Shown one piece after another: positions 5,790 to 63,445 of a DNA stretch of 64,000 nt. Where the stretch lies: positions 372,001 through 436,000 of the forward strand of contig CAUYUJ010000281.1 in NCBI GenBank assembly GCA_963575745.1, written 5' to 3'. The translations under genes and the position numbers were made by a program. Every line of letters starts with the position of its first letter. Position 1 is the stretch's first letter. Below the pieces are notes generated by a model. It saw nothing but the letters and a program-made list of their open reading frames with translations. It was not told the origin of the DNA and searched no databases. Source of the stretch: Prorocentrum cordatum. Its lineage: Eukaryota.

Positions 5790-5852
5790 CTTACGGGCAG
5801 GGGGGAGGTGGAGGAGGGGTAGGGCAAGGAGGGGGAGAAGGCATGGGGGGGG

Positions 5853-12442: not shown

Positions 12443-12635
12443 TCGGGAGCGGCCAAGAGGGGGGTGTTCAAGAGGGGGGGGTGCAAATCATGGCTGGCGG
12501 CACGTGCGCGGCCCAGCGGGGGGGCCAGCGACGTAATGAAATAAGAAGAGGCGCCATGACATCTGGGAAATATCATGGCCCCCGCCATGATATCCACCCC
12601 CACCTAGTCATCACCCCCCTCTTTTCCGCCCCCGA
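12443..12635. mobile_element. TIR MITE with TCGGG...CCCGA ends and 5-bp TSD
   Basis: TIR tcgggagcggccaagagggggg / ccccctcttttccgcccccga; gtgtc at 12438-12442 and 12636-12640. Confidence 0.8.
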
Positions 12636-12689
12636 GTGTCATGGGGAGGGCGTCCTGTTTCGGCTGTCTTTGCTGTGTTGCCGAACAGG

Positions 12690-17851: not shown

Positions 17852-18026
17852 GTTAGGTCGGGCGTGTCCCCGTACAGGCGGATTGGGACGGAGCATAAAA
17901 CAAAAGTTCTACGATGTTCAAGCATAGTTCAAACAACGACCCGAAACATCGCCCCGAGACTACGTGTATGTTTTTTTTTTTCCATCTTGAAATGCTCCTC
18001 CGGTAGAGGGGCATGTCCGACTTGAG
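17852..18026. mobile_element. MITE family B free-standing copy
   Basis: ttaggtcgggcgtgtccccgtacaggcgga...tcctccggtagaggggcatgtccgacttgag; same TIR as the elements in the M43 genes. Confidence 0.8.
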
Positions 18027-18211: not shown

Positions 18212-19330
18212 GTCGGGTCGGGCGCGTCCTCCGACAGTCGAGGCGTTGGCCTAAGGAACCCTGAATATGGAACGAGGGGCCCCTTTTTCCCCTAAGTTCA
18301 ACCTCGATGTCCTATGGGATCCTATGGGAAACCTCAGGAACACCCGAGGCAAACTCTGAAACAACCAAGGAACACCGAGCCCCTCCCCAACGAAAAGGGT
18401 TCCTTCTTCAGGGCCCCGACTGTACAGGCGGAGTCTGGAAGACAAATGAGTACTTGTCAAACAATATCCAAACAGAGTCAAAAGAGCACGACGAATCGTT
18501 ACCAAACTATGCTTACATCATTCTTGTATCATCCTCCTGTACAGTCGAGGCGTTGACCTAAGGAACCCTGAATAAGGAGCGAGGCCCCTTTTTCCCATAA
18601 GTGCAACCGCGATGTCCTAAGGGATCCTATGGAGAACCTCAGGAAAACCCGAGGCAAACTCTCAACCAATCAAGGAACACCGAGCCCCTCCCAACGAAAA
18701 GGGTTCCTTCTTCAGGGCCCCGACTGTACAGGCGGAGACTGGAAGACAAATGAGTACTTGTCAAACAATATTCAAGCATAGTCAAAAGAGCACGACGGAT
18801 CGTCACCGAACTATGCTTGCATCATTCTTGTATCATCCTCCTGTAAGGGGCGTGTCGGCATGTCCTTAGTGGGCCCTGGGAACGGCAAGGTCACCGTTTC
18901 CGTAGAGATGTCTCTTGAATCTGGAAGCGGTACGAAAAAGGCAACGGCAAACAAAAACAGCTCCGGAATCAGGCTTGGAACCAGAACCTAAGAAACAAAC
19001 ACGGCGACGGAAGCGGCAAGCGAATGGCCAAACGGCACCCGCAACAAAAAAACGGCATAACGGAACCAATATTAAAACAACGGCCCTGTCGTTTCCATCC
19101 GGGGCCCACGAAGGTCGGGCCGGCCGAAAGGGGGGGATAGCCCAGGAGGGGGATGAGAATCAGCTCACGTAGCTGACTTTCTCGGCGCCTCCCGGCGCCG
19201 GAGGCGGCCATGTATCGAGGAATGGGCCCCTCGGCGGGGCCGAAACCAGCTGCATGCAGCAGATTTCGCAACACCCCCCTTCCCAATCCCCGCCATGTCG
19301 TCCGGCCCGAGAAGGACATGCCCGACTGAA
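18212..19330. mobile_element. Nested MITE stack: family B host containing A (18235-18422), A (18542-18726), C (18865-19113) and a TCGGG element (19115-19310)
   Basis: B termini gtcgggcgcgtcctcc / gacatgcccgact; A copy 18542-18726 flanked by TA/TA; gaagg TSD at 19110-19114 and 19311-19315. Confidence 0.75.
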
Positions 19331-19666
19331 AACTTTCACGGGCGAAGAACGGTGTGACATAGACTTCCTCGCTGCCGGGGGCGCCTGTCCCAGGGCGGCT
19401 GGACAGCTTATACCCCTACGAAGGCACCGTAGGGGCACAAACTTTCCAGCCGCCCAGGGGCAGGCGCCCCCCCGTTAATTCCATCTTCTGCCGTTCTTCG
19501 CCCGACTGAAAACTGGCGGCGGGGGCTGCGGCCAGCCACCGACGCGCGCTGGCGGCGGGGAGAGCGGCGAGGCCGCCGGCGCGCGTCGGGGGGGGGGCCG
19601 CGCCTTGCCGCTCTCACTCCGCCGCGGCGGCGGGGCAGCGCTCGGCCTCCGCACGACGGCGCCCCG

Positions 19667-21290: not shown

Positions 21291-21456
21291 TAGAGGAAAG
21301 AGAACTATGCACATACACTGATTCTGGCCAGGCCCATCCTGAGCCCAGGATCGGTGCATACGCCCTCTACCTTGGCCAGGAAGGTATATGCACCGATCCT
21401 GGGTCAAGGAGGGGCCTTGCCAGGATCGGTGCATGTGCATAGTTCTCTTCGCCCGA
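21291..21456. mobile_element. Fold-back MITE with 5-bp TSD inside the L1 tail
   Basis: aagagaactatgcacat / atgtgcatagttctctt long arms; tcctc at 21286-21290 and 21457-21461. Confidence 0.85.
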
Positions 21457-31800: not shown

Positions 31801-34676
31801 GAGAGATGCGGGGGGCGGTGCGGTCGTGATACGCCGCCGCTATAGCCTTGGACTTGGCCACTGGAAGTCCCGAAGTCCTGCAGGAAGCCATGTAGTAGAC
31901 CAAGGGTGTCAGCCGCCTGCCCTTCCAAAACAGTCAGCGGGGCAATGACCTGCGAGGTGAGATCGTCGGCGAATGCATCTAGCGTGTGCGACGTACCAAC
32001 GCAGGTGCAGGCGACGGTGCCAGCTTGGACTTGGCACTCAACCAATGCAGAAATCATCAGATGCTGAACGCGCGCCGTCGCGAATTTACAACCAGGTAAA
32101 ACACCTTGCTCAACAACCACCGAGCATGACGTAGCCTGCAACCGCACCCATCTGCCCGGCGCCCTATACATGGCCAAGGCACACGCCAGCAACTGACGCG
32201 GAAAGCCATGCTTACGAGCTGCCTCGACCAAGAAGGACCACGCACTGCGTTTGAAGCACTTCTCGATATCCGCGATGGCGGCGACCACCCCAAGCCCGTC
32301 GGCAAGACCAGCCTCAGCACGCAGTAAGGCACGAGAGGCAACATCCAAGGTTAATTTGCCAGCCGCCAATGCGAAGCAAGGCCGGTCATGCTCAAGAAGC
32401 CATTCACGAAGCTGTTGGCCCCGAACCTGAGACCAGGCACGGTAGGCAGCGACCAGCTATGCAATGGGGCGCCATCCCCCCTTCGGCTTCGCCAGCGATA
32501 CAATGTGCACTCTCATCATCTACGTAGGCCTCCGCTCCCAGCGCTCTGCGAGCCACATGATGTAGATGAGGAGGGACAGCACTTCGTCGCTCACGATACT
32601 CAGCGACCGCGGTGCCAGCCTGTCTGCTCCCTGCCCTGTGGTCCAGCGGAAGCTCTCCGCCGCCCTGCGCGCTGTAGCAACGCGAGAGACAGGAAGTGCG
32701 GCCTTCGGAAGTTGCTGGGTGGCCTGAAAGACCTCCGCGGTGCCGTCGAAGTCCGCCATATTGCCGAGTCTCGCACGCATGGCATCCGTGGCCTGCACCC
32801 TCGACCTGAGACAAGGTAGAGCAGTCCGAGACAGGCGAGGCCCGCCAAATCCGAGACCAACCAGCCATCTGGTCATCGGCCACAAGCTGCGCCGCCGTCG
32901 CGTGGATCCCGCGGCGCTGGGCCTGGAAACGCGGTAACCCAAGGGGCTTCGTGAAAGAGAACAGCGGCTTGATGCGGCCCGCCCCGCAGCCTTGCGCCCA
33001 GTCCGAGAAGGCCTTGCGGCGCTGGTGCATGGCCTCCCCCTCCTGCACGTCGGCGAAGCACCCGAGCCAGGCGACCGCTACATGCGCAATTTCTCGGACC
33101 GCGGTCCGCGCATCACCTAGGCCCACCGCTGGGCAGGAATCCATGTGGTAAACCTCAGGAGCAGGGAGAACGCCGAGAAGAAAAGCACGAGGAGCACCAT
33201 GGCCGCGGGGAGCTCGACGGCAGCGCCCCCCCACAGGCGGCGGCGCTCCACGCCGCCTTCGCCCAGCACCCGGGCGGGGGGCTGGCAGGATCGCGGAAGG
33301 CGCCGTCAGGCGCCGCACTGCGATCTCGGACAGCGCTGCGAGCTGGCAGCGGCTCGAAGGTTTCCCGCGTTCCTGCGCCGGCGTCACCGGCCTCCCTTCC
33401 GAGGAAGGGGCAAGGCAAAGCTCCGCGCTCAAGGTCGTCGGTGGCAAGCTGAGCAGAGCGCCCGTCGTCGTGGTAGTAGACCTGGCCATGCTCCCGCTTG
33501 CGCATCTTCAGCGGCGGCGGGAGCAGATCCGCTCCCACGCTGTAGCCCGTGCGCGCCACCTCGTCCGCCTCCGACTTGATGTCGCCCATGGGGTGGGGCA
33601 GCGCAACGGCCTTCACGACGTAGTCCCCACCACGAGATACGCCACCGCCATTGCACCCAAGGTGCGGCTCCGAGACGCGTGCGCTGCGATAGCAGTCCCA
33701 CACTCGACTAACCACTACGCCACGCTCGTCACCTCCCCTGGCAAGGTCGGCTCCCACACTACGCCCAGCAGCAAGTAGGCCACGTACCTCCCCTGCAGGA
33801 CCTTCAAGGGTCAGCTCCGAGACGTGGGCACTGTGATGGCAGTCCCCATTACGACTAACCACTACTCCACGCCCTTCACGTCCCCTTGCAAAATCGGCAC
33901 GCCCACCACGTCCAGCAGCAAGTCGGCCACGCACCTCCCCTGCAGGACCTTCAAGGGTCAGCTCCGAGACGTGGGCACTGTGATGGCAGTCCCCATCACG
34001 ACCCACCACTACGCCGCACTCGTCCCTTCCCCTTGGCAAGGCCAGCGCCCCCACCACGTCCAGCAGCGAGAGTAGGCCACGTACCTCGACCGCAGGCCCT
34101 GCAGCGCGCGGGCCGACGCCAGGCACGCGCGGCGACGGAAGCAGATCAGAACTCGAGCCGTGGTCCGTGCACCCGGCCTCGTCCACCTCCGACAGGATGT
34201 TGCCCATGGAGCGGTCCCCTTGCTGTGCCTGCCTTGGGGGGGGGCTCAGAGAGCTGCTCCCCCACCCCCTCTGGCCAACGCGCCGCCCTTCGCGGTGGTC
34301 AGATCCCGCCCACGCTGCCCCACCAGCAGCGGCACGCTCTCCACGTCGCACACCAGCAGCGACCCCCTGGCGAGGGCCCTCGGCGCACGACGGGCCCACG
34401 GGCATCACGACCTCTGCATCATCCGTCGCCTCCTGATCGCTGCCGCGCTTGGGCCCACGTGGCGACGCCGAGCCTTGTAGCCGCGATGGCGCACCAGGAC
34501 TTTGCGAACTGACGCCCGTGACGGCAGAGCCTGGTAGCCGCATTGGCACACCAGGACTTTGAGAACTGACGCCATAGCACTCCTCGGCATCTTGAGCGTC
34601 ATCACCTGCCAACCCAAACTCCATCTGAGCTGCATGCCAGGACACAGATCGAGCTTCATCTGCATCCAGGAGCGCA
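28900..34676 (-). mobile_element. Decayed non-LTR retrotransposon L2 (RT + RNase H + Cys-rich tail); 3' boundary approximate
   Basis: RT: DIEKCF, QGVLPGC, FADDL (31713-32369); RNase H: GPLPGPRQTPGRAEL...KYVKGH (30246-30641); CERC (~29950); 34200-34350 resembles L1 26820-26990; 5' end abuts (GAG)n. Confidence 0.8.
33650..34090 (-). repeat. 147-bp (49-codon) tandem repeat x3, frame-preserving
   Basis: gctccgagacg at 33667, 33814, 33961; translates as repeated GVVVSRNGDCHHSAHVSELTLEGPAGEVRG. Confidence 0.85.
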
Positions 34677-35280
34677 GGAGGAGGAAGAGCAGGAGGAGGA
34701 GAAGAGGGGAGGAGGAGGAGGAGGAAGAGGAGGAGGAGGAGGAGGAGGAGGAGGAGGAGGAGGAGAGGAGGAGGGGGAGGAGGAGGAGGAGGATGAGGAG
34801 GAGGAGGAGGAGGAGGAGCAGGAGGAGGAGCAGGAGAGGAGGAGGAGGAGGAGGAGGAGGAGGAGGAGAGGAGAGGATGAGGAGGAGGAGGAGGAGGAGG
34901 AGAAGAGGAGGAGGAAGAAGAGGAGGAGGAGGAGGAGGAGGAGGAGAGGGGCAGGAGGGAGGAGGAAGAGGAGGAGGAGTGAGGAAGAGGAGGGGGAAGA
35001 GGAGGAGGAGGAAGAGGAGGAGGAGCAGGAGGAGGAGAGAGGAGGAGAAGGAGGAGGAGAGAGGAGGAGAGAGGAGGAGAGAGGAGGAGAGAGGAGGAGA
35101 GAGAGAGAGGGGAGAGGAGGAGGAGGAGGAGAGAGGAGGAGGAGGAGGAGGAGGAGGAGAGGAGAAGGAGGAGGAAGAGGAGGTGGAGGAGGAGGAGGAG
35201 GAGGAGGAGAAGGAGGAGGAAGAGGAGGAGGAGGAGGAAGGAGAGAAAGGGACAGGACGGGAGGGGGGAGGAAGGGGATA
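34677..35280. repeat. (GAG)n microsatellite
   Basis: Directly visible. Confidence 0.95.
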
Positions 35281-36305
35281 AGGGGCAGGACGCTCGCACG
35301 CACACACGCCCAAGTGCGGCCACTCTGTGAACGCTGGGGTGGCGCTGGTTGCACCAAGCGTTCGAGTTGAAACAGCTAAAATCGTGCACAGTGCAACGCG
35401 AGCTTGATGCTTGATGGAAGGAAGGGGGAGGAGGGGGGGGGAGCGGTAGGAGGGCAGGAAGGAGGTGGAGGGTGGAGGGGCGGAAGGGGGAAAGAAGGAA
35501 GAGAATAGGGAAGGAGGAGGGGGAGGAGGAGGAGGAGGAGAAGGAAGAGGAGTAGGAGGAGGAGGAGGAGGAGGAGGAGAAGGAGGAGGAGGAGGAGGAG
35601 GAGGAGAAGAAGAAAGAGGAGGATGAGGAAGAGAAAGGCGACGAGAGGAAGGGATAGAGGGGGGAGGGAGGGGGTGGGGAGAGGGGGAGGAGGCGGGGGG
35701 CGGGGGGCGGAGGAGGGCGGATGGCATGAGAGGCGGGCTGGAGATGGAGGTGGAGGGGGAGAGGGAGGGAGGGAGGCTGGAGCGGGAGGCGTCTACCGCA
35801 GGGCTCCGGGCGCTGGGCCCGCCCGGAAAAACGTGGCGCGCAGCGCGCGCTCCGACCCCGCGCACGAACCTGCCGCAGGGACGCCGCCCGAACGGCCGAG
35901 AGGCGCTGTCGCTCGGCAGCCCGGCTGGCAGCGCTCCCTGGCCCTCCCGAAGACGGGGCATGCCGAGGCCGCGGCGACGCCGACGACATGCAGACCGATT
36001 GGACGGCGCGCTCCAGGGTACGGCGCGAGGGGGCGGCCGCCTTCGGAGACAAACGTTTTTTGTGTTTCTTCTTTTTTGTGCTTGTGAAAACACATCAAAA
36101 GCATTCAGAACCATATGTGTATATATATATATATAACAAAAAACAGGCAAGTGGCGTATTGGAAGCCGTGCTGGCTTCTCAGAAGCCTTCGTGGAAGCCG
36201 TGCTGGCTTCTCCTGAGAGGACCCGTTCCTTCGAGGAAGCCCCGCCGCCTTCTTGAGAGGCCGCCGCCCTCGCGCCCCCCCACCCTGTGCGCGCCGCTAA
36301 TGCTC

Positions 36306-37922
36306 TCACCACTTCTTTGACGTCTGGAAGAGGCCAGTCCGGTGGTTCTCCAGCACGCACCACGCGCGCCGCTTCTGTCCCTCCGTGAAGCCCACCATGC
36401 ACGCGTCCGGCGAATAGTCCATGAAGTTGTGGACCGGGTCGGCGCCACTGCCGCAGGAGCTGTCGCGGACGCACTGGTAATGCGGCATCATCTCCTTCTC
36501 CGTGTCATCGACGTAGTCGCCGTCTCTCGAGCAGCCGCCCTCGAAGGTGTGGTACAAGCCAAATCCGTGCCCCGCCTCATGCACCACTGTGTCCCCCTCG
36601 TCGTACATCATGTCCCCCTGGTGCCGTGAGGCATGGCCACGGAACCCCACGGACGACACCACGACCATGTGCTCTGGGTCGTCATCCGTCAGATCTTGCG
36701 GGAACGTGGTCTGACCCAAGATGCCAGACTTGTCGTTCGTGATGATGACGACAGTGAAATAACCCCCTGCGTTCTGGTTGTACTTGTGCAACAGGTGCGA
36801 CTGCGTAAACCCTTCGCGCGCACACGCGCTGTCGGTCACGATGGTGATGTTCATGAGCTTGAAGCTGATCTGCATGTCAACGGAGGGCGGGTGCTTGCTG
36901 TCGAAGTCGAAGTGTAGCCATGGCGACCTGCCAGCAAAGGCCTCGTTGGCCCACCTGTTCTGCTCCCTCACGTGCTCCTCGGTTATGGAATCGTCTTCAT
37001 TCGATTTCTTGCACACTACGTACCTGGTCGGGATCTCCAGCCTGTGAGCCTTGGGAACCTCGGGCAAGTCATGGCCGCACTTGGTCCCCCCAGTGGCACC
37101 CTCCCTGGAACTCCTGCCAGTGTGCGGCTTCGCGTGCGTGATGTGGTAGGACCACTTGTCCGGCAGCCCGACGTGACCGTGGGTCTCGTCTTAGGTCGGG
37201 CATGTCCTCCTACAGGCGGATTTTGAGAAGAAGCACACAATGGTCAAACGATAAACAGAGATAGGCAGCAGAGCACGACGAATCGTCACCAGACTGTTTT
37301 TGTTTACTATTCTGGGATATTCCTCCTGTTGAGGGGCATGCCCGACTTAAGTCTCGTAGATTTCGACGCCAGCCGTGCCGCCGAGGCTGGTCACGTGGAA
37401 GCAGCCCCTGGAGCCTCGCAGGGAGCCGGGGCCGCAGGAAGGCGGGAACCTCAAGCCAGACAGCGATGTCTCGTTGCAGCCAGGGTAATACGAATTGGCG
37501 ATCATCTCGCCAAAAAGCGGCGGGAACGGGTGCTCCACGTGCTGGTAGAACGACGCCCAGACCTTGTCGCTGGGGAGGTACAGGCACCCACCCTGGCGCA
37601 GCGCGGGGGCATGAGGGTGCGACATGACAAACTGCAGGATGTGCCTCGAGTGGCGCATGGTCTGAGATCCGCTCAGCAGCTGCCCCACCCCGCGGTAAAT
37701 CTGCCTGTGCTGCTCGAGTTCGTCAGCGTCCTGGAGGTCGCCGTGCCTCTCGTACACGGCTCTCTGCTCAGGACGACCATGTTCAGCCTGATTCGTTGGC
37801 TCAACGCTGGTGTCAACCTCGGCCTGCTGGTGCGTCGGGTCCAACTCCCTCATGGACAGCGCGTCGGTCAGACGGGTCCGCAGCCAGAGCAGCGCTAGCA
37901 CCCTCAAAGCAGAAGCCGCCAT
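36306..37922 (-). CDS. Secreted M43 (pappalysin/ulilysin-like) zinc metalloprotease, copy 1; join 37922-37352 + 37189-36306, ~484 aa
   Basis: Signal-peptide-like [17 protein letters not shown] putative cysteine switch; [13 protein letters not shown] metzincin motif; NFMDY Met-turn; segments in frame after removing 37190-37351. Confidence 0.88.
37190..37351. mobile_element. MITE family B interrupting M43 copy 1 (putative introner intron)
   Basis: ~30-bp TIR cttaggtcgggcatgtcctcctacagg / cctgttgaggggcatgcccgacttaag; tctcgt at 37184-37189 and 37352-37357. Confidence 0.85.
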
Positions 37923-38006
37923 CGGCCTGCAGGTCTAAATGTACTCAGTGTTGCGGTGCTTAGAGATATCCTGGCGCCTCCGAGATCGTCTCGAACATCT
38001 GGGTGA

Positions 38007-38027
38007 TTTGAACGCTCAGGCTACAGT
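38007..38027 (-). other. Possible degenerate spliced-leader relic upstream of M43 copy 1 (also 50339-50359)
   Basis: Minus strand ACTGTAGCCTGAGCGTTCAAA vs DCCGTAGCCATTTTGGCTCAAG; ~85 nt before ATG, after a pyrimidine tract; weak match. Confidence 0.3.
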
Positions 38028-38619
38028 TGAAATGGGGAGGAGGATGGGGGGGAGGAGACGCTGATTACATAAACTGACATGGAACTTCGAAGTCGCCTTT
38101 ATACCGACCTCCCCTTACCGAAACTGGTTCACACTGCCCCCACTGCCCCTTCCGCCCCATCCTCAACCTTCTCATCATCCCCGTCTTAATTTCGAAGCCC
38201 CCGAAGGTTCCGCGTGGCACACCACCCACATCTGTCGAACTAGTCAACACGCACCATCCCGTCAAGCAGAATTTACATGAGGCGGCGGACAAAGATAATA
38301 GGACGGCTGACATGGCCGCCAGCTCCACCCCGCCTGGCCATTCTCTGAGACAAGCACGCGCGTGTTCATAGATGTGCCGATGTCGAATTACTGAGATCGG
38401 ACTTTGTTTGCAGCAGCGCAGGCACTGGCTGTGTAGCGCGCAATGCTGTGCTGCCCTGCTTTAGCAAATCGCTCGAAATAACTGGGCCGGCTCAACATGT
38501 AGCGCTGTGGCCCCGAGCGCTTCGTCGGTGGAATGGCGGACTTTGACAGTGGGCACTACACGCCAAACCCATCGAGGGCAGAGAGAGGAGAAAGGGGAGC
38601 AGGAGAAAGAATGCTCAGA

Positions 38620-41849: not shown

Positions 41850-44221
41850 TATAACGAGGGGCCAACGCAAGAGACTACCACGAATGCTTTGCTAGCCGGG
41901 CAGGCCACGCCTAAGAAGAAGCGGCCCCACCGCCAGCGAGCTCCACTCGCTCTTCTTCCAGTTCTGCTCGGCCTAGGGCAGCTTGCCGGGGTCGGTCAGG
42001 TAGTGCTCGTCTGGGGCAAAATCCAGAGGCTCCGGGAACCGTCGAACAGCGGTTCTCCCGCGGCCCAGGTCGTTGTTCCTTCTGGCCCGACCATGGGCCA
42101 TGCACCGGGAGATGCGATGCCCGATCGATTTGGAACTGCCCGCGCAGGACGCGATCTGAATCTCCAGGGAAGCAATGCGCATGATCGGTTTCGCCTGTGC
42201 CATCACCAGAAGAGCATCTTCAGAAATACTAAATTGCTTAATCGTCCTCTCTGCTTCCACCGCGAGCTCAGGCTGGCGACATGCCCAGCGTGGGATCGAG
42301 GAGCGCGTGTTCGGGCGCTGAACGGCAAGACTAGCACAAACGCGAGCACGAACGATTACTTACCGAATCTCTACTGGCTGCCATTCAACTCCAGCGGCAG
42401 GCGCGAAGCATGCAAGCACAGAGGGAAGCATCGACGTACATACATCCGACCATTGCGCGACGCACTCAATACTGCCCCATTTGTATGTTTACTATGTGGG
42501 CGGTGCACATGTGCAAGTTCGGTATAGCAGGAGACATATCTGCCAAATTAACTTGCTAGCGATCCACTGGGAGTCTTATCCAAAGACGGGTCCACGCGCT
42601 GCTTAGACAGGCCCAGTGCACAAACATTCCCGTCGCCACCTACACAGACAGAAATATGCTGCGGGACCAGCGATCTCGCGACACAAGAACGAGAACGTTT
42701 CTTCCCAATGCTCGAGTCTTTGGGGCCATTGAGACAATGGCAAGGTACATTGAGCTCCAGAGCGGTGCGCTCGCCGGCTGCAGTATTCACCGAATCGACG
42801 GGTTCAAAATGCGAGTGGAGACGGTCGTGGACGCAAATCATCAAATATTTGATCATCACAGAACGCGCCGTAACATGTGCGGGAGGGGGGAAGCGAGCGA
42901 GAGTGTCTGAATCACCGACGTGTCCGTGGGGTTCTAGAAATAAGAGGCAGTCGAATTTGCCAGCTACCCCAAGGAATGGGCCCCACTCGGCGCGCCAAGC
43001 AGTGCAGCGGCATTCCAGATGCAGATGGACAAGTGACTAGGAAGCACCCGAGTAACAGCAGGAGGGGGAACAGAGAGGGCACCAGGCGGCGAGCGCAGCA
43101 AAGATAATGGAAGAGCGGCACAGTCCTCATTCACTTCAGGAAGCCATCGGACCAGATTGAGCATCTCCAGGATGGGCTTCATCCTCTCGCATGTGAGTCC
43201 CAGTTCAAGGCGCTCGGCATGGGGGCCCCAATTCGAGGCACGTTCATCAGCAACGACACTGACGAGGCCACACGCAGCAGACTCCGATGTCACCGAAACT
43301 GGGTTGCAGAACGCAGAGCAGCCAAGTTTGCACTTCTGAATTTCCCGGTCCTGGCGCGACTTGGGCAGCTTCGTTAGAGGTAGCTGCGAACTTCACGAGG
43401 TAGGTCGCCTCGGCAGTGCAACTGAATTACAACACCGCCCCCGGGACCCGCCCAAGTAACTGCGTTCATGCCAAACCGCGAACTGAACGCCTTAGCCTGC
43501 TCTTCGGACTGCCATGCCGCGCCGGACCTCTGAGACGAACGATGAAAAAGGAGGGGCAGCATCTTTTTGTGGAATCTGCGATGGCAGCTTCGCTGCAATA
43601 TCTTGCCGCGCCTGCTTCAGAGTGATATCCATAAACCTTTTCTGAGAATGCGCCGATCCACCGACGACCGGAATTTTGAGCGCCTGCAGTCAGTAACATT
43701 GGAAGACGACCACTCAGCATGCACCGAAAAAGCTGCGGGTAGCGAAGACAAGCGAAACATTCAACGCGACGGCGCTTCGATCCTTGAGACCACGAAGAGG
43801 AGGCGCCACAGTCAGAAACAGCAGCGTTCGCGGAAACGTCGACTTTCAAAGTGTTGACTGCCTGCGTACATTCGTCATGCTTGCCGTTCAGCTTATTGTC
43901 GAGCTCAAGCATCTGGGCCTGGATGCCTTCGACCTGGGGCTTGAGAGCCATGCGTTCCTTCCCCGAGTTGTCCGTATTCCCAATGGCCGGCGTCGTCGTC
44001 GCGCGGTCGCGACCATGCTTCTCGTGCTTCCCCTCCAGCATTTTCACGGTGGCCTCCAAGTCAGCCGTGGAAGTTCGAAAAAAGCGGAAGGGGTCCATGG
44101 GCTTCAGTGGCAACGTGCTTGCGTGCGACACTGATCGAGAATCGGGGCTCCAGGATCTGCCTGGGGCGGCCTCTGCCATCCCCGAGCGGCGCGGCAACGC
44201 GCCACCTCGAGAAGTCGATCG

Positions 44222-44258
44222 CTCGAGCCAAACTGGCTTGAGCCGAACTGGCTGCGGA
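44222..44258 (-). other. Spliced-leader-like 22-mer plus tandem 15-nt relic
   Basis: TCCGCAGCCAGTTCGGCTCAAG (19/22 to DCCGTAGCCATTTTGGCTCAAG) followed by CCAGTTTGGCTCGAG (13/15 to CCATTTTGGCTCAAG). Confidence 0.85.
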
Positions 44259-44699
44259 GGAGGAGGGGGAGGGGGCGCGCGCCTTCCCCGAGTGGCGCGA
44301 CGCAGCTCGCCGAGATCGCCCGGGGCTCCGAGGGGCGGCGCTCGGGCCCGCTCTGGGCCGGGCCGGCGCGCGCCCCACTCGCCGCCCGCGCCGCCCGCGG
44401 AGCTGAGGTACGAAGCCGATGTGGCATCGCAGCAGCAATTCGGCCCTTGACTTTCGTCCTCGGTTCGGCTTAGTGAAGCGATGAATTTCGGGGCCCTTGC
44501 GCGGGGAAAAACATCGCTTCACTAATCTGAGGCCCCTGGGGCCTCAGTGGGCCCCGGGGCCCAAAATCAGCGAAGTGATGGCTATCGACCCTCGGATGAG
44601 ACAGACCAGACTTGTAGGGGGGCGTTCGCATCAGAACTTCCCGCGGCGAGAGGGCGACCGCAGGGCCCTCGCGCAGGCGCCGGCGAGCGCAGGGGCGCG

Positions 44700-47530
44700 G
44701 GCCCCGCAGCTGCTCGCCTCGTCTGCGCCGCGCCTGGGAGTTGACGAGCTGGCCCTCGCAAGTCCGCTAAGATGTCGGTGGCCCTGCCGCTCGAGAAGGC
44801 GCCGCAATCGCCGCGAAACAAGACTGCCAGCGAGCAGAAACACGCATCGGCTCAACGGCAGCTGCAAGGGGGCCGCCCTCGGGGCGGGCGACAAACGGAT
44901 ATCCATCGAGGGCGCCCGTCGGCAGGGCATCCTGACGAAAGCCCCCTGGCCCTTGAAGGTGCGGAACTGCCTTCCGCAGCCCCAGTTCTGACGCAGGCGC
45001 GCCTCTGTTCCCGGAGGAGGGGCGAGGGGGTGCCCGGGAAGGCCCAGCCCGAGCCCGCGGCATCTCCCGCGACCCCACCATTTGGCGCCGCCGCCCAGTG
45101 GCGCCTGCAAGTACACCAGCGCGCGAGGTCCTGCTGACCCCGAAATTGCACGCATTGCAAGCGTCATCTGAAAGCTCCTGCCAAATTTTCTCTAGCCCGG
45201 GGGGGGGATCTACCGCGGCCCCAACTTTGGCCCGCGGTCGCCCGTGCGACTGCGGGCCAACCAGTGGAAGGGAAATCCACCCGGGGTAGTCGCCTCGGCC
45301 GCAATAACCCACTCCGCTATCAAGGTGGCAGAGACCGACGAGCCCACGCCCTGCCAACTGGGAGACGAGCCGCCACTTGTGGAACATATCCTCATCGGCC
45401 AAGTCGAGATTGACTCCGAAGTATGGCCGCCGAGGCGGCTGCGACGGGCGCCCCGCGGGCAACTCCGCGGGGAAAGGCTCGGGGCGGGCCAGTCGCCAGC
45501 CGCGCTGGACGCGGATGCGCGAGTCAGCGCGACCTGCACGGGCGACCGCGGGGAGGCCGAGGTGTCCAGGACCGTGGCCTTCCCACATGCAGCAGCTATC
45601 GACGTGTCGACGACGAAGAAATCGACTGTCCTGCCGCCGCCAAGCCCCGCGCACGTAACTTGCTCTGGTGCTGGGGGTACTCCAGCAACGTCCTCGAGCC
45701 AGCCCGCGCCTTCCAGCGAGCCCACGACGTTGCGGAAGTCAACTTGCAAAACCCACGGCAGCCCGCAACGCGCGATAAAACCTCCGATCGTTTCAAGTAT
45801 AAACGAAAACCTGATTGTCCATCCTTCGTTCGTCTACAGATAGGCAGACGCCATGATGGGCCCGCCCGGCTGTCCGGCTGGGGCCCGCCCAGCTGCGATC
45901 CTTCCTGGCGGCCCCAGCTGCGATCCTTCCTAGCGACTCCTGCCTTCCAGGACCGTAACTCCCATGGTGCGCGGCACGAGCAGACCTGCTCCCGCGCTTC
46001 GAACTCCGCCAGCGCCTTCGGCGGAGGGTGCGGAGTCGGCGATGAAGCTACGCTGGCAGCGTGCTGCCTCCACTTGCTGACGCCAGAACGGGAGAGGCGC
46101 AGCTCCTGCAAAAAGAAAATGCGGTAGGCTGCCAGGTCGTTAGCCTCGTCAGTGTAGTCGACGGCAGACGACCAGGCGTTAGCATTCAAACCAATCAGCT
46201 GCAGCCCCGGTTTCTGGTGGAGCTTCTGGCCACAGCGGCCCCTGGCGGCGCCGCGCGCATGGCGGCGCGGCGGGCTAGGAGCCCGCAGGGGGGCCGCCTC
46301 CGCCGCCGCCAGCTGTCGCGGCGGCCCGCTGCCGAGCTGCCTGAGCCACGGCTGCAGCATCGCCAGAAGCAGCAGCGCCGCCCGCGCCAGCGCCCGCAGG
46401 CGCTTCCCAGGCCGATCCTGGGGCCAGCGCAGCGAGGGGTGGTCCTCCGCCCGCGCGCGGCGCGGCAGCTTAGTTGCCGGCTGTCGCGGCCTTGGGGGAG
46501 CCGGACGCCGCGGCGCCGCCGCCCTCTGCGCGGCGGTGCTTCGCCGCAAGGTGCGTGCGCATCGCCGCCAGCTCCGCGCGCCGTGCCCTGATCGCCTCGG
46601 CGCTGGTGCTGAAGACCTCCTTGACCCTGCCCTTGATCTCCTGAGCGAAGGCCGCCTTGAACTCGTCCCGTTGCTGCTTCTCGGAATCATCCAGGTCGTA
46701 CTTGATCTGGTCGAGGTCGTCGCGCAGCAAATTACTGAGGTTGATAGCTGTCGCTGCAGGCGCTGGCGCAGGCGCCTCCTGAGCCTCGGCCCCGCGCCCA
46801 CGGCTGATGGGAGCGAGGGTGTCGCCGACGTCCGCCTTCGCCGTGGCAAGCGCCTCGGCGGCAGCAGCGGTGTTTGCACGACGCAGCTCAAACCAAACGA
46901 CCGCCTTGTGCTTCGACGTGGTCGCCTGCTCGAGCGACTGGTTGGCGCGCTGCTCCACCGCCACCAGACGCTGGTCCTTGGCATGCGAACTCTCATGCTG
47001 CTCCTTGGGCGCTGGTTCAGCCGCTTCCTGAAGCCCTGCAACGCGTCGAGCTGGTCGGGTGCGACACGGCTCTCGAGGACGAGGAACGTTGAGGCCAGCG
47101 CGGGCGGGTCCCCAGGCGGAAGCAGGTCCCCACCCGAGCCTTTCCCGCGGCCCTACTTGGTCCTCGTCCCCGCGCCCATGTCGTCGTAAGAACTCTAGGC
47201 CCCGCGCGGCGTGTGCCGGGGCGCAGGCGGGAGCTCCAGCGGCGCCGCGCACCTGTAGCACGCCTCGCAGCCCTTTCCACTTGTACTTGTAAGTCCTGGC
47301 GTGGCACTTGTTTTGCCCATGCGGCTGCTTGCCCATGGGTCGGCGCGGCACGGCGCAGGCTCCCCCAGGAGCCTGCGGAAAGCTGTGCCGAGGTGGGGCG
47401 GACCACCACGGCACTCACCCTGGGGCGGACCAGGGGAAGCGTTGAAGGCAGTGCTCGGTAGAGCAATCCCTGCAAGCTCGGAGGCTGAATGCCCGGCAAG
47501 CACATCACCTTGATCCAGACTTGCTACGGA
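44700..47530 (-). mobile_element. Decayed non-LTR retrotransposon L3, 5' part only (SL-like head, ORF1, APE); 3' boundary approximate
   Basis: ORF1 MGKQPH...CEACYRC (frameshift) + coiled coil; APE: IGLNANAW, FFLQELRL (~46100-46200), VDFRN, TVDFFVV, SPRSPV (45500-45750); no RT seen. Confidence 0.8.
47509..47530 (-). other. Spliced-leader-like 22-mer at 5' end of L3
   Basis: TCCGTAGCAAGTCTGGATCAAG, 18/22 to DinoSL; directly abuts (GAG)n. Confidence 0.75.
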
Positions 47531-47880
47531 GGAGGAGGAAGAAGAAGAGGAGGAGGAGGAGGAGGAGGAGAGAGGAGGATGAGGAGAGAGGAGGACGGAG
47601 GAGGAGGAGGAGGAGAGGAGGAGGAGGAGGAGGAGGAGGAGGAGGAGGAGGAGCGGAGAAGGAGGAGGAGGAGGACGAGGTGGAGGAGGAGGAGGAGGAG
47701 GAGGAGCGAACGTCGCCTAGGAGGAGGAGGGGGAGGGAGGAGGAGGAGGAGGAGGAGGAGGAGGAGGAGGAGGAGGAGGAGGAGGAGGAGGAGGAGAAAG
47801 GAGGAGGAGGAGGAGGAGGAGGAGAAGGAGGAGAAGGAGGAGGAGGAGAGGAGGAGGAGCAAGGAGGAGGGGAAGAAGGG
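47531..47880. repeat. (GAG)n microsatellite
   Basis: Directly visible. Confidence 0.95.
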
Positions 47881-48654
47881 ACACGACGCTCGCACGCGCG
47901 CCCAGGCGCGGCCCCTCTGTGGACTCTGTGGTGGCGCCGGCGGCACCAAACGTTCGGGTTGAAACAGCAGAAACCGTGCACAGTGCAGCGCGCACTTGAT
48001 GGGAGGAGGGGGAGGAAATGGAGGGTGGAGGGGGCGGGGGGGGGAAAGGAGGAGGAGGGGGAAGAGGAGGAGGACGAGGAGGAGGAGGAGGAGGAGAAGG
48101 AGGAGGAGGAGGGTTGGGAGAGGGGGACGAGGCAAGGGCGGGGGGCGGAGGAGGACTGATGGCATGAGAGGCGGGCTGGAAATGGAGGTGGAAAGGGAGA
48201 GGGAGGGAGGGAGGCTGGAGCGGGAAGCGACTACCGCGGGGCTTCGGGCGCTGGGTCCGCCCGCCAAAATGGGGCGCATCGCACGCTCCGACCTCGCGCA
48301 CGAACCTGCCGCAAGGGTGCAGCCCGAACGGCCGAGGCGCTGTCGCTCCGCAGCCCAGCCGCAGCGCTCCCAGGCCATCCCGAAGACGGGGGATGCCGAT
48401 GCCGCGGCGACGACGGCATGCAGACCGTTTGACGGCGCGCTCAAGGGTGTGGCGTGAGGGGGCAGCCGCTTTCGGAGGCGTAGGGGGGTCTCTAAGCAAG
48501 CAGGTGGCTTACTGGAAGCCCTGCCGTCTTCTCAGAAACAGTCTTGGAAGCCTCTGGGCCCTTCTGAGAGGACCCGTTCCTTCTAAGAGGCCCCGCCGCC
48601 TTCTTGAAAGGCCGCCGCCCTCACGCCACCCCCTTGTGCGCGCCGCGAATGCTC

Positions 48655-50254
48655 TCACCACGTCTTCGACTTCTGGAAGAGGCCGGCCTGGCTGGTCTCC
48701 AGCACGCACCACGCGCGCCGCTTCTGCCCCTCCGTGAAGCCCACCATGCACATGTCCGGCGAGTAGTCCATGAAGTTGTGGACCGGGTCGGCGCCACTGC
48801 CGCAGGAGCTGTCGCGGACGCACTGGTAATGCGGCATCATCTCCTTCTCCGTGTCGTCGATGTAGTCGCCGTCTCTCGAGCAGCCGCCCTCGAAGGTGTG
48901 GTACAAGCCAAATCCATGCCCAGCCTCATGCACCACTGTGTCCCCCTCATCGTACATCATGTCCCCCTGGTGCCGTGAAGCATGGCCACGGAACCCCACG
49001 GACGACACCACGACCATGATCTGGCCATGCGGGAACATGGTCTGGCCCAAGAAGCCAGACTGGTCGTCCGTGATAATGACGACAGTAAAATCATCCCCCG
49101 CGTTCTGGTTGTACTTCTGCACCATCCGCGACTGCGTGAACCCCTCGCGCGCACACGCGCTGTCGGTCACGATGGTGATGTTCATGAGCTTGAAGCTGAT
49201 CTGCATGTCCACGGAGGGCGGGTGCTTGCTGTCAAAGTCCATGTGTTGCCATGGCGACCTGCCGGCAAAGGCCTCGTTGGCCCACCTGTTCTGCTCCCTC
49301 ACGTGCTCCTCGGTGATAGAGTCGTCTTCGTTCGATTTCTTGCACACTACGTACCTGGTCGGGATCTCCAGCCTGTGAGCCTTGGGCACCTCGGGCAGGT
49401 CACGGCCGCACTCGGCCCCCCTTATGGCACCCTCCCTGGAACTCCCGCCGATGTGCGGCTTCGCGTGCGTGATGTGGTAGGACCACTTGTCCGGCAGCCC
49501 GACGGCACCGTGGGTCCCGTCTTAGGTCGGGCATGTCCTGCTACAGGCGGATTGCGAGAAGAAATACAAAACAAGTCAGACAATAGTCAAACCAATGCAT
49601 AAAAAAAACGGCACATCGTCACCAGACTTGTGTTTCTACTGTGCTTGAGTACTCCTCCTGTTGAGGGACATGCCCGACTTAAGTCTCGTAGATTTCGACG
49701 CCAGCCGTGCCGCCGAGGCTGGTCACGTGGAAGCAGCCCCTGGAGCCTCGCAGGGAGCCGGGGCCGCAGGAAGGCGGGAGCCTCAAGCCAGATAGCGATG
49801 TCTCGTTGCAGCCAGGGTAATACGAATTGGCGATCATCTCGCCAAAAAGCGGCGGGAACGGGTGCTCCACGTGCTGGTAGAACGACGCCCAGACCTTGTC
49901 GCTGGGGAGGTACAGGCACCCACCCTGGCGCAGCGCGGGGGCATGAGGGTGCGACATGACAAACTGCAGGATGTGCCTCGAGTGGCGCATGGTCTGAGAC
50001 CCGCTCAGCAGCTGCCCCACCCCGCGGTAAATCTGCCTGTGCTGCTCGAGTTCGTCAGCGTCCTGGAGGTCGCTGTGCCTCTCGTACACGGCTCTCTGCT
50101 CAGGACGACCATGTTCAGCCTGATTCGTTGCCTCAACGCTGGTGTCAACCTCGGCCTGCTGGTGCGTCGGGTCCAGCTCCCTCATGGACAGCGCGTCGGT
50201 CAGACCGGCCCGCAGCCAGAGCAGCGCCAGCACCCTCAAAGCAGAAATCGCCAT
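48655..50254 (-). CDS. Secreted M43 zinc metalloprotease, copy 2; join 50254-49684 + 49520-48655, ~478 aa
   Basis: Paralog of copy 1 with the same [13 protein letters not shown] and NFMDY motifs, 6-aa in-frame deletion; in frame after removing 49521-49683. Confidence 0.88.
49521..49683. mobile_element. MITE family B interrupting M43 copy 2 (putative introner intron)
   Basis: Same TIRs and position as 37190-37351, diverged interior; flanks tcccgt / tctcgt. Confidence 0.85.
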
Positions 50255-50769
50255 CGGCCTGCAGGCCTACATGTACTGAGTGTTGCGGTGCTTAGAGATA
50301 GCCTGGCGCCTCCGAGATCGTCTCGAACATCTGGGTGATTTGAACGCTCAGGCTACAGTTGAGATGGGGAGGAGGATTGGGGGGGGAGGAGACGCTTGTG
50401 AGAGAATTCAATATGGCATAGCACTTCGAAATCGCCGTTGTACCGACCACCCCTTCCCCAAACTGGTTCACACTGCCCCCACTGCCCTTTCCGCCTCATC
50501 CTGACTCTTCTCATCATCCCTGTGTCCTCACATCGAGACCCCCAAAGGTTCCGCATGGCACGCCACCCACATGTATGGTACGACCGCAGTCAACACGCAT
50601 CATCCCCGACAGGCAGAACTTACACGAGGCGGCTGACATGGCCACTGGCACTAGCCCGCCCAGCCATTCTCTGAGACAGACACGCGCATACTCATCAGAG
50701 TGAGGGGGCTGAGCCGAACGGTCATTCACTGTCCCTGGGAGCGTGGGTGAAGTGGAATTCCACGATGCG

Positions 50770-52603: not shown

Positions 52604-58696
<6,093 letters not shown>

Positions 58697-58796
58697 NNNN
58701 NNNNNNNNNNNNNNNNNNNNNNNNNNNNNNNNNNNNNNNNNNNNNNNNNNNNNNNNNNNNNNNNNNNNNNNNNNNNNNNNNNNNNNNNNNNNNNNN
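58697..58796. other. Assembly gap (100 N)
   Basis: Run of n. Confidence 1.
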
Positions 58797-62002: not shown

Positions 62003-62544
62003 CCTTGGGGCTTTCTCGGGGGCCCTCGTACTCTCGGAGCCTCCAGGGAGGTCCGACAAGCTGTCCGAATCCCGCCCAGCAGTTGCCAAGAGTCCCAGGA
62101 CAGCCCCAAGAGACCACGCTCTCCCAACTGATGGCTGGAGATCGTTGCAAATAGGGCCCTCTGGGAGGCCCTGCCGGGGCCTCCTGGGGCCTCCGTGGGG
62201 CTTTCTCGGGGGCCCTCGCCCTCTCGGAGCCTCCAGGGACGTCCGACAAGCTGTCCGGATCCCGCCCAGCAGCTGCCAAGGCCAAGGGTCCCAGGACAGC
62301 CCCAAGAGACCACGCTCTCCCAACTGAGGCTGGATAACGTGGCAAATCGGGGCCAACCGGGAAGCCCTACCGGGCCTCCTGAGGTCTCCTTGGGGCTTCC
62401 TCGGGGGAACCTCGCCCTCTCAGGGCCTCAGCAGGAGCTCCCTGACGTTCGCTGCATACCGTTTGGCCCTTAGAGATGGATGCCCGACCAAGGCCATCCA
62501 ACAGGGGACCTTCCACCCCTTCAGGAAGCGGATCGTCTAAGAGT

Positions 62545-63445
<901 letters not shown>

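What the first reader, a model, noticed from the sequence alone, without database searches (positions are those of the whole stretch)
37184..37357. Palindrome-ended TIR element acting as a probable intron in both M43 protease genes
Seen: family B (CTTAG...CTAAG, ~30-bp TIRs, in-frame TAA) sits at the same codon in both paralogs (162 and 163 bp). Coding sequence is near-identical up to the TIR while the interior is strongly diverged. Removing exactly TIR-to-TIR restores both ORFs (YENETHG / YENGTHG, both N-x-T sequons). Free copies at 17852 and 18212 show mobility, and the TIR offers an AG acceptor in either orientation. Exact removal needs a CT donor; alternatives are phase-1 G|GC donors shortly upstream. 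Known: introner transposons and GC/GA donors occur in dinoflagellates. Inference: an introner, possibly with stem-guided non-canonical splicing.
Basis: partly seen in the sequence, partly recalled or inferred. Interest (0 to 1): 0.8.

Follow-up and report, generated by a model that had tools for sequence, protein, structure and literature searches.

The report
Hairpin transposon spliced from protease genes
A small hairpin-ended mobile element sits inside two neighbouring protease genes of a Prorocentrum-type red-tide alga and is missing from their messenger RNA together with one copy of its insertion-site duplication, at ends that break the usual splice-site rules, so the public gene models for both genes are wrong.

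Summary
A 162/163-bp element with 31-nt terminal inverted repeats interrupts the same codon of two tandem M43 peptidase genes on the minus strand.

RNA contigs from four of four runs lack the element. Three skip 169 nt in paralog B, which is the element plus one duplication copy. That spacing matches all 54 homologs that carry the neighbouring motif.

A mismatch in B's second duplication copy limits the cut to GA..GG, AC..GG, CT..GA or TT..AC. No GT/GC/GA-AG pair fits. A second hairpin-ended segment of 221 nt in B's 3'UTR is also skipped at non-canonical ends. The downstream catalytic exon shows purifying selection, dN/dS 0.34.

The public models truncate or split both genes.

Best reading: a MITE-type introner removed at non-canonical ends, as in Amoebophrya but here in a core dinoflagellate. 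The main rival is that element-free gene copies supply the transcripts. No DNA run or genome was available to test that.

The parts
37358..37922 (-). Paralog A, exon 1 (ATG at 37922-37920) up to the 5' duplication copy. It encodes a likely signal-peptide-like N-terminus and an N-terminal region with no Pfam match.
   Evidence: ORF list, translation, Pfam scan with no family for this part. It is identical to the public 191-aa model P0121.
37352..37357 (-). A, target-site duplication, sense-5' copy (sense ACGAGA; 7 nt if 37351 is counted).
   Evidence: Exact direct repeat GTCTCGT at 37351-37357 and 37183-37189.
37190..37351 (-). A, 162-bp MITE-like element with no ORF. The inverted-repeat arms are 37190-37220 and 37321-37351. 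An in-frame TAA lies 2 nt inside its sense-5' end.
   Evidence: 31 nt, 81% complementary. RNA fold of the sense strand gives -61.6 kcal/mol, z -2.66. Sequence.
37184..37189 (-). A, target-site duplication, sense-3' copy.
36306..37183 (-). A, exon 2 with the M43 catalytic domain ([11 protein letters not shown]) and the stop codon at 36308-36306.
   Evidence: Pfam PF05572, E 6e-12, 46.2 bits against a cut-off of 23. ORF. The 168-nt-removal model gives 482 aa.
49690..50254 (-). Paralog B, exon 1.
   Evidence: RNA contigs with 0 other letters cover 49683/49685-49900 (X1, X2), 49956-50175 (X1) and 50146-50331 (X1, X2, X15).
49684..49689 (-). B, target-site duplication, sense-5' copy (ACGAGA). This is the copy kept in the RNA.
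   Evidence: In the 169-nt joint, 3 letters fit either side and the fourth letter comes from this copy.
49521..49683 (-). B, 163-bp element with inverted-repeat arms 49521-49551 and 49653-49683.
   Evidence: 31 nt, 84%. Fold -73.0 kcal/mol, z -3.46. Depth is zero at 49536-49677 in X1, X2 and X6, and 28.6 / 87 in X15.
49515..49520 (-). B, target-site duplication, sense-3' copy with one mismatch (sense ACGGGA). At least its first four bases are removed with the element.
48655..49514 (-). B, exon 2 with the M43 domain and the stop codon at 48657-48655.
   Evidence: the 169-nt-removal model gives 476 aa. RNA contigs with 0 other letters cover 48758/48760-48915, 48889-49018, 48989-49174 and 49369-49481.
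48429..48649 (-). B, second hairpin-ended segment. It lies in the 3'UTR, starts 6 nt after the stop codon, and is skipped in RNA contigs. Sense ends are TT..AA or AT..CA; X2 shows a 225-nt variant.
   Evidence: Joints in 4 of 4 runs. The shorter sides are only 24-29 letters, because the laid stretch began at 48400. Fold -135.8 kcal/mol, z -6.85, with 0 of 200 shuffles as stable. Sequence.
36002..36297 (-). A, homolog of the 3'UTR hairpin segment. It has the same terminal arms and an extra AT-rich insert in the middle. No RNA was laid on it.
   Evidence: blastn-short of the B segment against the window. Sequences.
17853..18023 (.). Third copy of the element family, outside the M43 genes, with no recognisable target-site duplication.
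18212..19328 (.). Possible longer relative of the family. It has a degenerate left end, a 14-nt exact right-end core and an internal tandem repeat.
   Evidence: (18227-18541 vs 18532-18845, 91.8%). Weak.

Best explanation
A non-autonomous DNA transposon with terminal inverted repeats (a MITE) inserted into the Tyr-Glu-Thr codons of an ancestral M43 metallopeptidase gene. It has 31-nt inverted repeats and a 6-7-bp target-site duplication, sense ACGAGA(C). The host is a Prorocentrum cordatum-type dinoflagellate. The insertion came before the gene was duplicated in tandem.

In the pre-mRNA the two inverted repeats can pair into a long stem that brings the two duplication copies side by side. The element is then removed together with exactly one duplication copy: 168 nt in A (inferred) and 169 nt in B (seen in RNA contigs). 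This recreates the pre-insertion reading frame (...IYETHG...), so the catalytic domain downstream is still made.

The element therefore acts as an introner-type intron, but its ends are not GT/GC/GA..AG. In B the only placements that fit the RNA are GA..GG, AC..GG, CT..GA or TT..AC. A GA donor two bases upstream of the inverted repeat, with an AG-independent 3' cut, is the option closest to known dinoflagellate splicing.

Shown: the anatomy, the absence of the element from RNA contigs, the joint sequence, and constraint on the downstream exon. Inferred: that the contigs come from these element-bearing loci, that the stem guides the removal, and which machinery does it.
For: 1. Anatomy: inverted repeats and an exact 7-nt flanking direct repeat, and a third family copy in the window. 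One further transcribed copy shows up as loose ends at 49650/49683 in X15.
2. RNA: on window 48400-50500, all 4 of 4 runs show contigs that join across the element. X2, X6 and X15 skip 169 nt (depths 33.6, 59.3, 90.3) and X1 skips 168 nt (depth 125.9). Depth inside the element is 0 in 3 of 4 runs, which argues against a retained element.
3. Product: the 169-nt joint gives a 476-aa open frame reading YETHGAVG.
4. Origin of the contigs: table 3 lists no other letters between 49331 and 49779. Pieces with 0 other letters cover most of B's exons in X1 and X2.
5. Paralog A: MMETSP transcript proteins P0002 and P0124 are 67/67 identical to the 168-nt-removal model within 30 residues either side of the junction, and 126/127 within 60.
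6. Homologs: 54 of the 120 listed carry LPDxW. Of these, 49 have [YF]ET-x-G-x-x-G directly before it and 5 have substitutions at the same spacing. None of the 120 has the two-residue insert.
7. Selection since the duplication: exon 2 has dN/dS 0.34, with 27.5 synonymous and 37.5 non-synonymous changes (binomial p 5e-5 to 1.6e-4). Both downstream frames are intact.
8. The inverted repeats (2/62 differences) are better conserved than the non-coding flanks (72/533; Fisher p 0.015).
9. In the 90% cluster of P0001, the only genome-derived (NCBI) members are three truncated models from this contig. No full-length genomic twin is on record there.
10. A second hairpin-ended segment in B's 3'UTR is also skipped at non-canonical ends in 4 of 4 runs.
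Against: - The RNA evidence is assembled contigs, not reads. Contigs cannot give splice ratios and can be chimeric between paralogs.
- No clear DNA run and no genome were available, so element-free copies identical to A or B are not excluded.
- X6's joint contig carries two A-type letters upstream (49780, 49793) with B-type sequence downstream. More paralogs, strain variants or contig chimeras therefore exist.
- X1 shows only a 168-nt skip, which would shift B's frame (228 aa). Removal is imprecise, or X1's copy differs.
- None of the 129 proteins fetched reads THGAVG. B-type spliced RNA rests alone.
- Exon 1 shows no significant constraint (dN/dS 0.56, 11 changes, p 0.27).
- The exon similarity may partly reflect gene conversion rather than selection.
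- The target-site duplication rests on one insertion event, and the free copy has none.
- The two inverted-repeat substitutions between A and B are not compensatory (my own reading of the sequences). The sense strand also pairs no better than the antisense strand.
Confidence: 0.7

Rival explanations
1. The joined transcripts come from other M43 gene copies that never had, or have lost, the element. Dinoflagellate genes occur in many near-identical copies. On this reading A and B are interrupted pseudogenes or make only the 191-aa N-terminal fragment.
For: The transcript-derived proteins are mosaics of A-type, B-type and third-type segments. X6's joint contig mixes A-type and B-type letters. 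No DNA run or genome could be examined. The joined product equals the empty site exactly, as an uninterrupted copy would. Exon 1 is 98% identical between A and B, suggesting gene conversion among copies.
Against: Both copies in the only genomic DNA seen carry the element. Contigs match B's exons and 5'UTR with 0 other letters over long stretches. B's diverged element interior (49536-49606) is covered in polyA run X15 while neighbouring non-transcribed bins are at 0, so B itself is transcribed. The genome-derived members of the 90% protein cluster are only the three truncated models from this contig. Exon 2 has evolved under constraint since a duplication that post-dates the insertion.
Confidence: 0.15
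2. The element stays in the mature mRNA, and the joints are made in vitro. Reverse transcriptase would jump across the stable hairpin between the short direct repeats (template switching).
For: The features fit that known artefact (recalled, not from a call here): non-canonical ends, direct repeats at the joint, and a stable stem bringing them together. The joint differs between runs (169 vs 168 nt; 221 vs 225 nt in the UTR), as a library-dependent artefact might.
Against: The roughly 100-nt loop would still be sequenced from a retained element, yet depth is 0 across 49536-49677 in 3 of 4 runs where exon depth is 28-125. The UTR joint has only 1 letter of shared sequence. The catalytic exon downstream of the in-frame stop is intact and under constraint in both copies.
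Confidence: 0.05
3. The element is an ordinary dinoflagellate GA..AG intron, as in the public model. The donor follows ...TACGA and the acceptor is the AG at the end of the inverted repeat (165 nt in B). The product is a frameshifted 229-aa protein.
For: The public protein P0122 is letter for letter the translation of this model. GA donors and AG acceptors are the accepted dinoflagellate rule (passages of PMC10666404; preprint 10.1101/2020.10.14.339549).
Against: No 165-nt joint appears in any of the 4 runs. The model destroys the catalytic domain. The genome paper's pipeline was restricted to GT/GC/GA donors, so a forced fit is likely (inference).
Confidence: 0.03
4. One reading: exact repeat-to-repeat (CT..AG) excision, or a G|GC donor just upstream, giving YENETHG / YENGTHG.
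For: Arithmetically the frames stay open, at 484 and 478 aa. The inverted repeat ends in AG.
Against: No 162/163-nt joint in 4 of 4 runs. 0 of 120 homologs have the insert. Transcript proteins read YETHG.
Confidence: 0.02

Closest known systems
Introner elements / non-canonical introns of Amoebophrya A25 and A120 (Farhat et al. 2021, PMC7789003; passages read)
   Same: These are introns with inverted repeats at both ends that can form a hairpin joining the exon borders, and short direct repeats overlapping the borders. They have no transposase, look like MITEs, and their splice dinucleotides are not GT-AG. The exact border is ambiguous within the direct repeat.
   Different: Those repeats are shorter: inverted 8-20 nt and direct 3-5 nt, against 31 nt and 6-7 nt here. 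The host there is a parasitic basal dinoflagellate in which U1 snRNA was not found. Here it is a photosynthetic core dinoflagellate whose published gene models assume G[TCA]-AG. Only one insertion event could be examined here, against thousands there.
Introners of Polarella glacialis and Symbiodinium (Roy et al., preprint 10.1101/2020.10.14.339549; parts 1-2 read)
   Same: DNA-transposon-derived introns with inverted repeats and target-site duplications. The usual intron there equals one duplication copy plus the element. One Polarella class is described with ends TAAG or TAGG, as here (CTTAAG / CTTAGG).
   Different: There the 5' site is a G[ACT] at the start of the duplication and the 3' site is the AG at the element's end. 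Here the duplication starts with AC. In B, the RNA keeps the 5' copy's fourth base, so the cut is not at the element's AG.
Introner-element census in Prorocentrum cordatum (Dougan et al. 2023, PMC10666404; passages and supplementary note read)
   Same: Same organism by protein names. Introner elements are defined there as introns with inverted repeats (8-20 nt) and direct repeats (3-5 nt) near both ends, and are reported in 2.4% of annotated introns.
   Different: That census looked only inside annotated introns, and the gene models were built with tools modified for GC and GA donor sites. The two genes here are mis-modelled in the public annotation, so this element would not have been counted.
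Nonconventional introns of euglenids (abstracts seen for PMC6221363 and PMC3935182; abstract and introduction of PMC12501133)
   Same: Variable non-canonical borders, a secondary structure that brings the intron ends together, an unknown removal machinery, and a proposed MITE link. The cuts lie a few bases outside the paired motif.
   Different: The Euglena signature (three bases, then a CAG-type motif, paired with a CTG-type motif five to six bases before a purine-starting exon) is not present at any allowed cut here. The lineage is unrelated.
Identically repeated intron boundaries of dinoflagellates (Mendez et al. 2015, PMC5032977; abstract and sections 11 and 15 read)
   Same: A 2-9-bp repeat at both intron ends is kept once in the mRNA, so the exact splice point is ambiguous.
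   Different: That repeat contains AG|G and allows a G-starting donor and an AG acceptor. The repeat here has no AGG.

Membership tests
MITE (non-autonomous TIR DNA transposon) | Terminal inverted repeats | tested here: met
   31-nt arms, 81% (A) and 84% (B) complementary. The third copy has related arms.
MITE (non-autonomous TIR DNA transposon) | Target-site duplication flanking the repeats | tested here: met
   Exact 7-nt direct repeat in A and 6 of 7 in B. This is one insertion event only; the free copy shows none.
MITE (non-autonomous TIR DNA transposon) | Small size, no coding capacity, several dispersed copies | tested here: inconclusive
   The element is 162-171 bp with no ORF. There are 3 copies in 64 kb (2 share one insertion), plus one further transcribed copy seen as loose ends in X15. 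The genome-wide copy number could not be counted. The metagenome scan gave only chance hits.
Introner (transposon family that creates introns) | The element is absent from mature mRNA and the reading frame is restored | tested here: met
   Joints in 4 of 4 runs. The 169-nt skip gives a 476-aa frame. Transcript proteins read YETHG. Caveat: the evidence is contigs, and the locus of origin is inferred.
Introner (transposon family that creates introns) | Many related copies serve as introns in different genes | not testable with these tools
   No genome is held for this window.
Introner of the Polarella/Symbiodinium/Aureococcus type | Spliceosomal G[TCA]..AG ends, with one site from the element and the other from the duplication | tested here: not met
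   The allowed ends in B are GA..GG, AC..GG, CT..GA or TT..AC.
Introner element as defined by Farhat et al. and Dougan et al. | Inverted repeats and short direct repeats within 30 bases of both intron ends | tested here: met
   Both repeats are longer than the search patterns those papers used.
Euglenid nonconventional intron | Signature of three bases plus a CAG-type motif at the 5' end, paired with a CTG-type motif five to six bases before a purine-starting exon | tested here: not met
   Checked by eye against the sense sequence. No CAG/CTG pair lies at those distances for any allowed cut. Only the general geometry is alike: a stem, with cuts a few bases outside it.
Peptidase family M43 (host gene) | Pfam PF05572 match above the curated cut-off, and the zinc motif HExxHxxGxxH | tested here: met
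   E 6e-12, 46.2 bits against 23. [11 protein letters not shown] is present in both copies.

The most novel reading that the evidence does not exclude
Core dinoflagellates may have an AG-independent, stem-guided way of removing hairpin-ended insertions from pre-mRNA. It would excise a MITE plus one copy of its target-site duplication and so erase the insertion exactly. It would act on many genes and UTRs, but would be invisible in annotations that allow only G[TCA]-AG introns. On this reading, the two segments in this gene (coding and 3'UTR) and the other strong hairpins in the window are samples of a large hidden class. That class would be mechanistically closer to euglenid nonconventional introns than to ordinary splicing.
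Probability: 0.25. Interest if true: 0.8.

Novelty: new member of a known kind. Interest (0 to 1): 0.6.

Why it matters
Gene annotation: if the reading holds, gene models in a 4.75-Gb bloom-forming dinoflagellate genome are systematically wrong wherever such elements sit. Here one gene is split in two and its neighbour truncated.

Intron biology: it would extend hairpin-ended, non-canonical introners from the parasite Amoebophrya to a free-living photosynthetic dinoflagellate. That bears on how transposon insertions become tolerated introns, and on whether the removal needs the normal splice-site signals.

A natural test case: B's mutated duplication copy marks which copy is kept, so the cut positions can be tested directly. 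My searches of the held library for Prorocentrum with 'non-canonical introns', 'introner' and 'non-canonical splice' found no paper describing non-AG removal in this genus. Papers outside that library were not searched.

Tried and rejected
- Own-genome search for more copies: no genome is held.
Only 2 had a second core within 1500 nt, and both were unrelated sequence on inspection. These are chance hits and were not used.
- Earlier findings of this scan: nothing by place, by sequence or by words.
- Rfam on the whole window: 0 matches at gathering score.
- Parts without RNA cover outside the joints (48471-48612, 50388-50500) are used only as a rough check against DNA contamination.
- Compensatory change in the stem: the two inverted-repeat differences between A and B are one gain and one loss of a pair. 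I read this from the sequences myself, so there is no covariation support.
- Transposon superfamily from the duplication length and repeat length: not assignable from one event.
- A degenerate spliced-leader relic upstream of the M43 genes: the motif search with up to 3 mismatches did not find one there.
- I did not fold or search the protein structure, or run a complex prediction. Neither bears on the question.
Full report
**What is there**

The finding lies in a gene on the minus strand. Two ORFs in the same frame are separated by 162 bp: 37934..37347 and 37190..36306. The downstream ORF carries an M43 zinc-peptidase domain (PF05572, E 6e-12, 46.2 bits against a cut-off of 23) and the motif [11 protein letters not shown]. 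The upstream ORF matches no Pfam family.

A second copy of the whole gene lies 12.3 kb away: 36141-38291 against 48494-50638, 90.1% identical over 2169 columns. The window is G+C-rich, about 0.56-0.72 in most 2-kb windows. Its closest named proteins are from Prorocentrum cordatum. Two proteins the look-up marks as the window's own, and a third identical to a model of paralog B, lie on one 662,615-nt record of that species.

**The element**

In both copies the interruption is bounded by 31-nt inverted repeats: 81% complementary in A and 84% in B. It is 162 bp in A (37190-37351) and 163 bp in B (49521-49683). An in-frame TAA lies just inside, so the upstream frame ends ...VEIYET*.

In sense this is ACGAGAC. 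In B, the copy on the sense-3' side has one change, to ACGGGAC. This is the signature of a target-site duplication made by a cut-and-paste transposon.

A third copy lies at 17853-18023. Its arms are 84-87% and its interior 52-57% identical to A and B, and it has no recognisable duplication. A 1.1-kb stretch at about 18212-19328 shares only degenerate ends.

Identity between A and B varies by segment:

| Segment | Identity |
|---|---|
| 5' flank | 87.3% |
| Exon 1 | 98.1% |
| Each inverted-repeat arm | 96.8% |
| Element interior | 65.7% |
| Exon 2 | 92.5% |
| 3'UTR | 84.8% |

The interior is more diverged than the non-coding flanks (p 3e-6). The inverted repeats are less diverged than the flanks (p 0.015).

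**What the RNA shows**

Of these, 20 hold the stretch or a part of it and 6 are on record as RNA. None is clearly DNA. I laid contigs of X1, X2, X6 (kind not recorded, but transcript-like in cover) and X15 (polyA RNA) on window 48400-50500, which is paralog B.

- All four runs have contigs that join across the element.
- X2, X6 and X15 join 49513 to 49683, a skip of 169 nt. Three letters fit either side.
- X1 joins 49516 to 49685, a skip of 168 nt.
- Depth inside the element (49536-49677) is 0 in X1, X2 and X6, where neighbouring exon bins stand at 28-125.
- X15 has 28.6 and 87 there. Part of this is another family copy: loose ends at 49650 and 49683 run into unrelated sequence.

Translating the alternatives from the window:

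| Model | Product |
|---|---|
| B, 169-nt skip | open 476-aa frame, ...IYETHGAVG... |
| A, 168-nt skip | open 482-aa frame, ...IYETHGHVG... |
| B, 168-nt skip (as in X1) | frameshift, 228 aa |

**Independent support for YETHG**

MMETSP transcript proteins P0002 and P0124 are 67/67 identical to the A model within 30 residues either side of the junction, and 126/127 within 60.

Among the 120 best homologs listed (1014 proteins with E <= 0.001 among 1272 candidates), 54 carry the nearby LPDxW motif. Of those, 49 have [YF]ET-x-G-x-x-G directly before it. The other 5 have substitutions at the same spacing. None of the 120 has a two-residue insertion.

The mRNA therefore equals the uninterrupted, pre-insertion sequence: the element plus exactly one duplication copy is gone.

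**Where the cuts can be**

Because the duplication is repeated, A's cut could lie at any of eight registers. B's mismatch narrows this. The joined RNA reads GAG, taking its A from the sense-5' copy, so at least the first four bases of the 3' copy leave with the element.

The placements that fit are, in sense, GA..GG, AC..GG, CT..GA or TT..AC. None has an AG acceptor, and only the first has a known dinoflagellate donor (GA). In that register the exon after the cut starts with GA. This matches the G[ACT] that Roy et al. report just downstream of dinoflagellate 3' sites. With the same donor, X1's variant would be a 3' cut one base earlier in B's run of G. That is an inference, not shown.

**A second case in the same gene**

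Six bases after B's stop codon, a 221-nt segment (48429-48649) is also skipped in X1, X6 and X15. X2 shows a 225-nt variant. The shorter sides are only 24-29 letters, because my stretch began at 48400. The contigs run over that end.

Its sense ends are TT..AA or AT..CA. It folds into a long hairpin of -135.8 kcal/mol, z -6.85, and none of 200 shuffles was as stable. Paralog A has the same terminal arms at about 36002-36297.

Two hairpin-ended, non-canonically bounded segments in one transcript make a common removal route more likely than two accidents.

**Is the removal real and in vivo?**

The insertion is shared by A and B: same site, same orientation, same duplication. It therefore predates the gene duplication, and all A-B divergence happened with the element in place.

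Exon 2, which holds the catalytic domain behind the in-frame stop, has dN/dS 0.34, with 27.5 synonymous and 37.5 non-synonymous changes (binomial p 5e-5 to 1.6e-4). Both frames are intact. Exon 1 has too few changes to tell (11; ratio 0.56; p 0.27).

A retained element with reverse-transcriptase skipping does not fit the zero depth over the weakly structured loop in three runs.

The stronger rival is that element-free copies supply the transcripts.

- For the rival: the transcript proteins are mosaics of several paralogs. X6's joint contig mixes A-type letters at 49780 and 49793 with B-type sequence downstream. No DNA control was possible.
- Against the rival: both genomic copies seen carry the element. 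B's diverged interior is present in polyA RNA of X15, while flanking untranscribed bins are empty. The only genome-derived members of the 90% protein cluster are three truncated models from this very record.

**The public models**

- P0121 (191 aa) is A's upstream ORF ending at the element's stop.
- P0123 (189 aa) starts at an internal Met of A's exon 2.
- P0122 (229 aa) is identical to a GA..AG model of B that removes 165 nt and shifts the frame.

The genome paper states that its mapping and prediction tools were modified to accept GC and GA donors. A forced canonical fit is the likely cause (inference).

**Comparison with what is known**

- In Amoebophrya, Farhat et al. describe introner elements with 8-20-nt inverted repeats, 3-5-nt direct repeats over the borders, hairpins joining the exon ends, and non-GT-AG borders.
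- The P. cordatum paper counts introner elements in 2.4% of annotated introns.
- Roy et al. describe Polarella and Symbiodinium introners in which one duplication copy plus the element is spliced out at G[ACT]..AG. One class has ends TAAG/TAGG, like this family.
- Mendez et al. describe repeated intron boundaries kept once in the mRNA, built around AG|G.
- Euglenid nonconventional introns share the stem and the cuts a few bases outside it. Their defined sequence signature is not present here.

This element is a new member of the transposon-derived, hairpin-ended intron kind. What is not in the papers I could search is removal at non-AG ends in Prorocentrum or another core dinoflagellate.

**What remains unexplained**

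- Why the interior is far more diverged (Jukes-Cantor 0.46) than the flanks (0.15) or exon synonymous sites (0.03-0.17). Possible causes are gene conversion limited to exons and inverted repeats, or replacement of the interior from other family copies. Neither was tested.
- Why X1 shows only the frameshifting 168-nt joint.
- Which machinery makes the cuts.

**Verdict**

It is an introner-like intron with non-canonical ends, but the ends and the product are not those proposed. Confidence in RNA-level removal from these loci is about 0.7.

Noticed in passing
window 48429-48649 (B) and about 36002-36297 (A), minus strand: A second hairpin-ended segment, in the 3'UTR right after the stop codon, is skipped in RNA contigs of 4 of 4 runs at non-canonical ends. 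It folds at -135.8 kcal/mol, z -6.85.
   Followed up: partly
window 36306-37922 and 48655-50254, minus strand: The public protein models for these genes are a 191-aa and a 189-aa fragment (A) and a frameshifted 229-aa product (B). The last is identical to a GA..AG model that no RNA contig supports.
   Followed up: yes
window 37221-37320 vs 49552-49652: The element interior is 65.7% identical between the paralogs, against 85-87% for the non-coding flanks and 97% for the inverted repeats. It is faster than neutral-looking flanks, and this is unexplained.
   Followed up: partly
window 44237-44257, minus strand: A 21-nt match to the dinoflagellate spliced-leader motif with 3 mismatches (0 expected in 100 shuffles). 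It lies inside a long minus-strand ORF (43469-44518). It may be a relic of a recycled cDNA.
   Followed up: no
window 21298-21449, 12428-12650, 5240-5390, 5269-5362, 19377-19471, 54139-54323: Several other long, near-perfect inverted repeats with short loops (arms 34-75 nt). The window is rich in hairpin-forming elements, and whether any is removed from RNA is unknown.
   Followed up: no
window 34668-35290, 47528-47880, 55250-55652, 62544-63077; also 53090-53700 and 5540-6080: Purine/pyrimidine-rich low-complexity arrays are repeated across the window in both orientations at about 80-86% identity. They create very long spurious Ser/Pro/Leu ORFs.
   Followed up: no
window 18227-18845: A tandem duplication of about 305 nt (91.8% identical) lies inside the possible long relative of the element family.
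   Followed up: no
window 49650-49683 (run X15 loose ends): A polyA-RNA contig carries one inverted-repeat end of this family between unrelated sequence on both sides. This is another family copy elsewhere in the genome that is transcribed.
   Followed up: no
window 58697-58796: A run of 100 N (an assembly gap).
   Followed up: no
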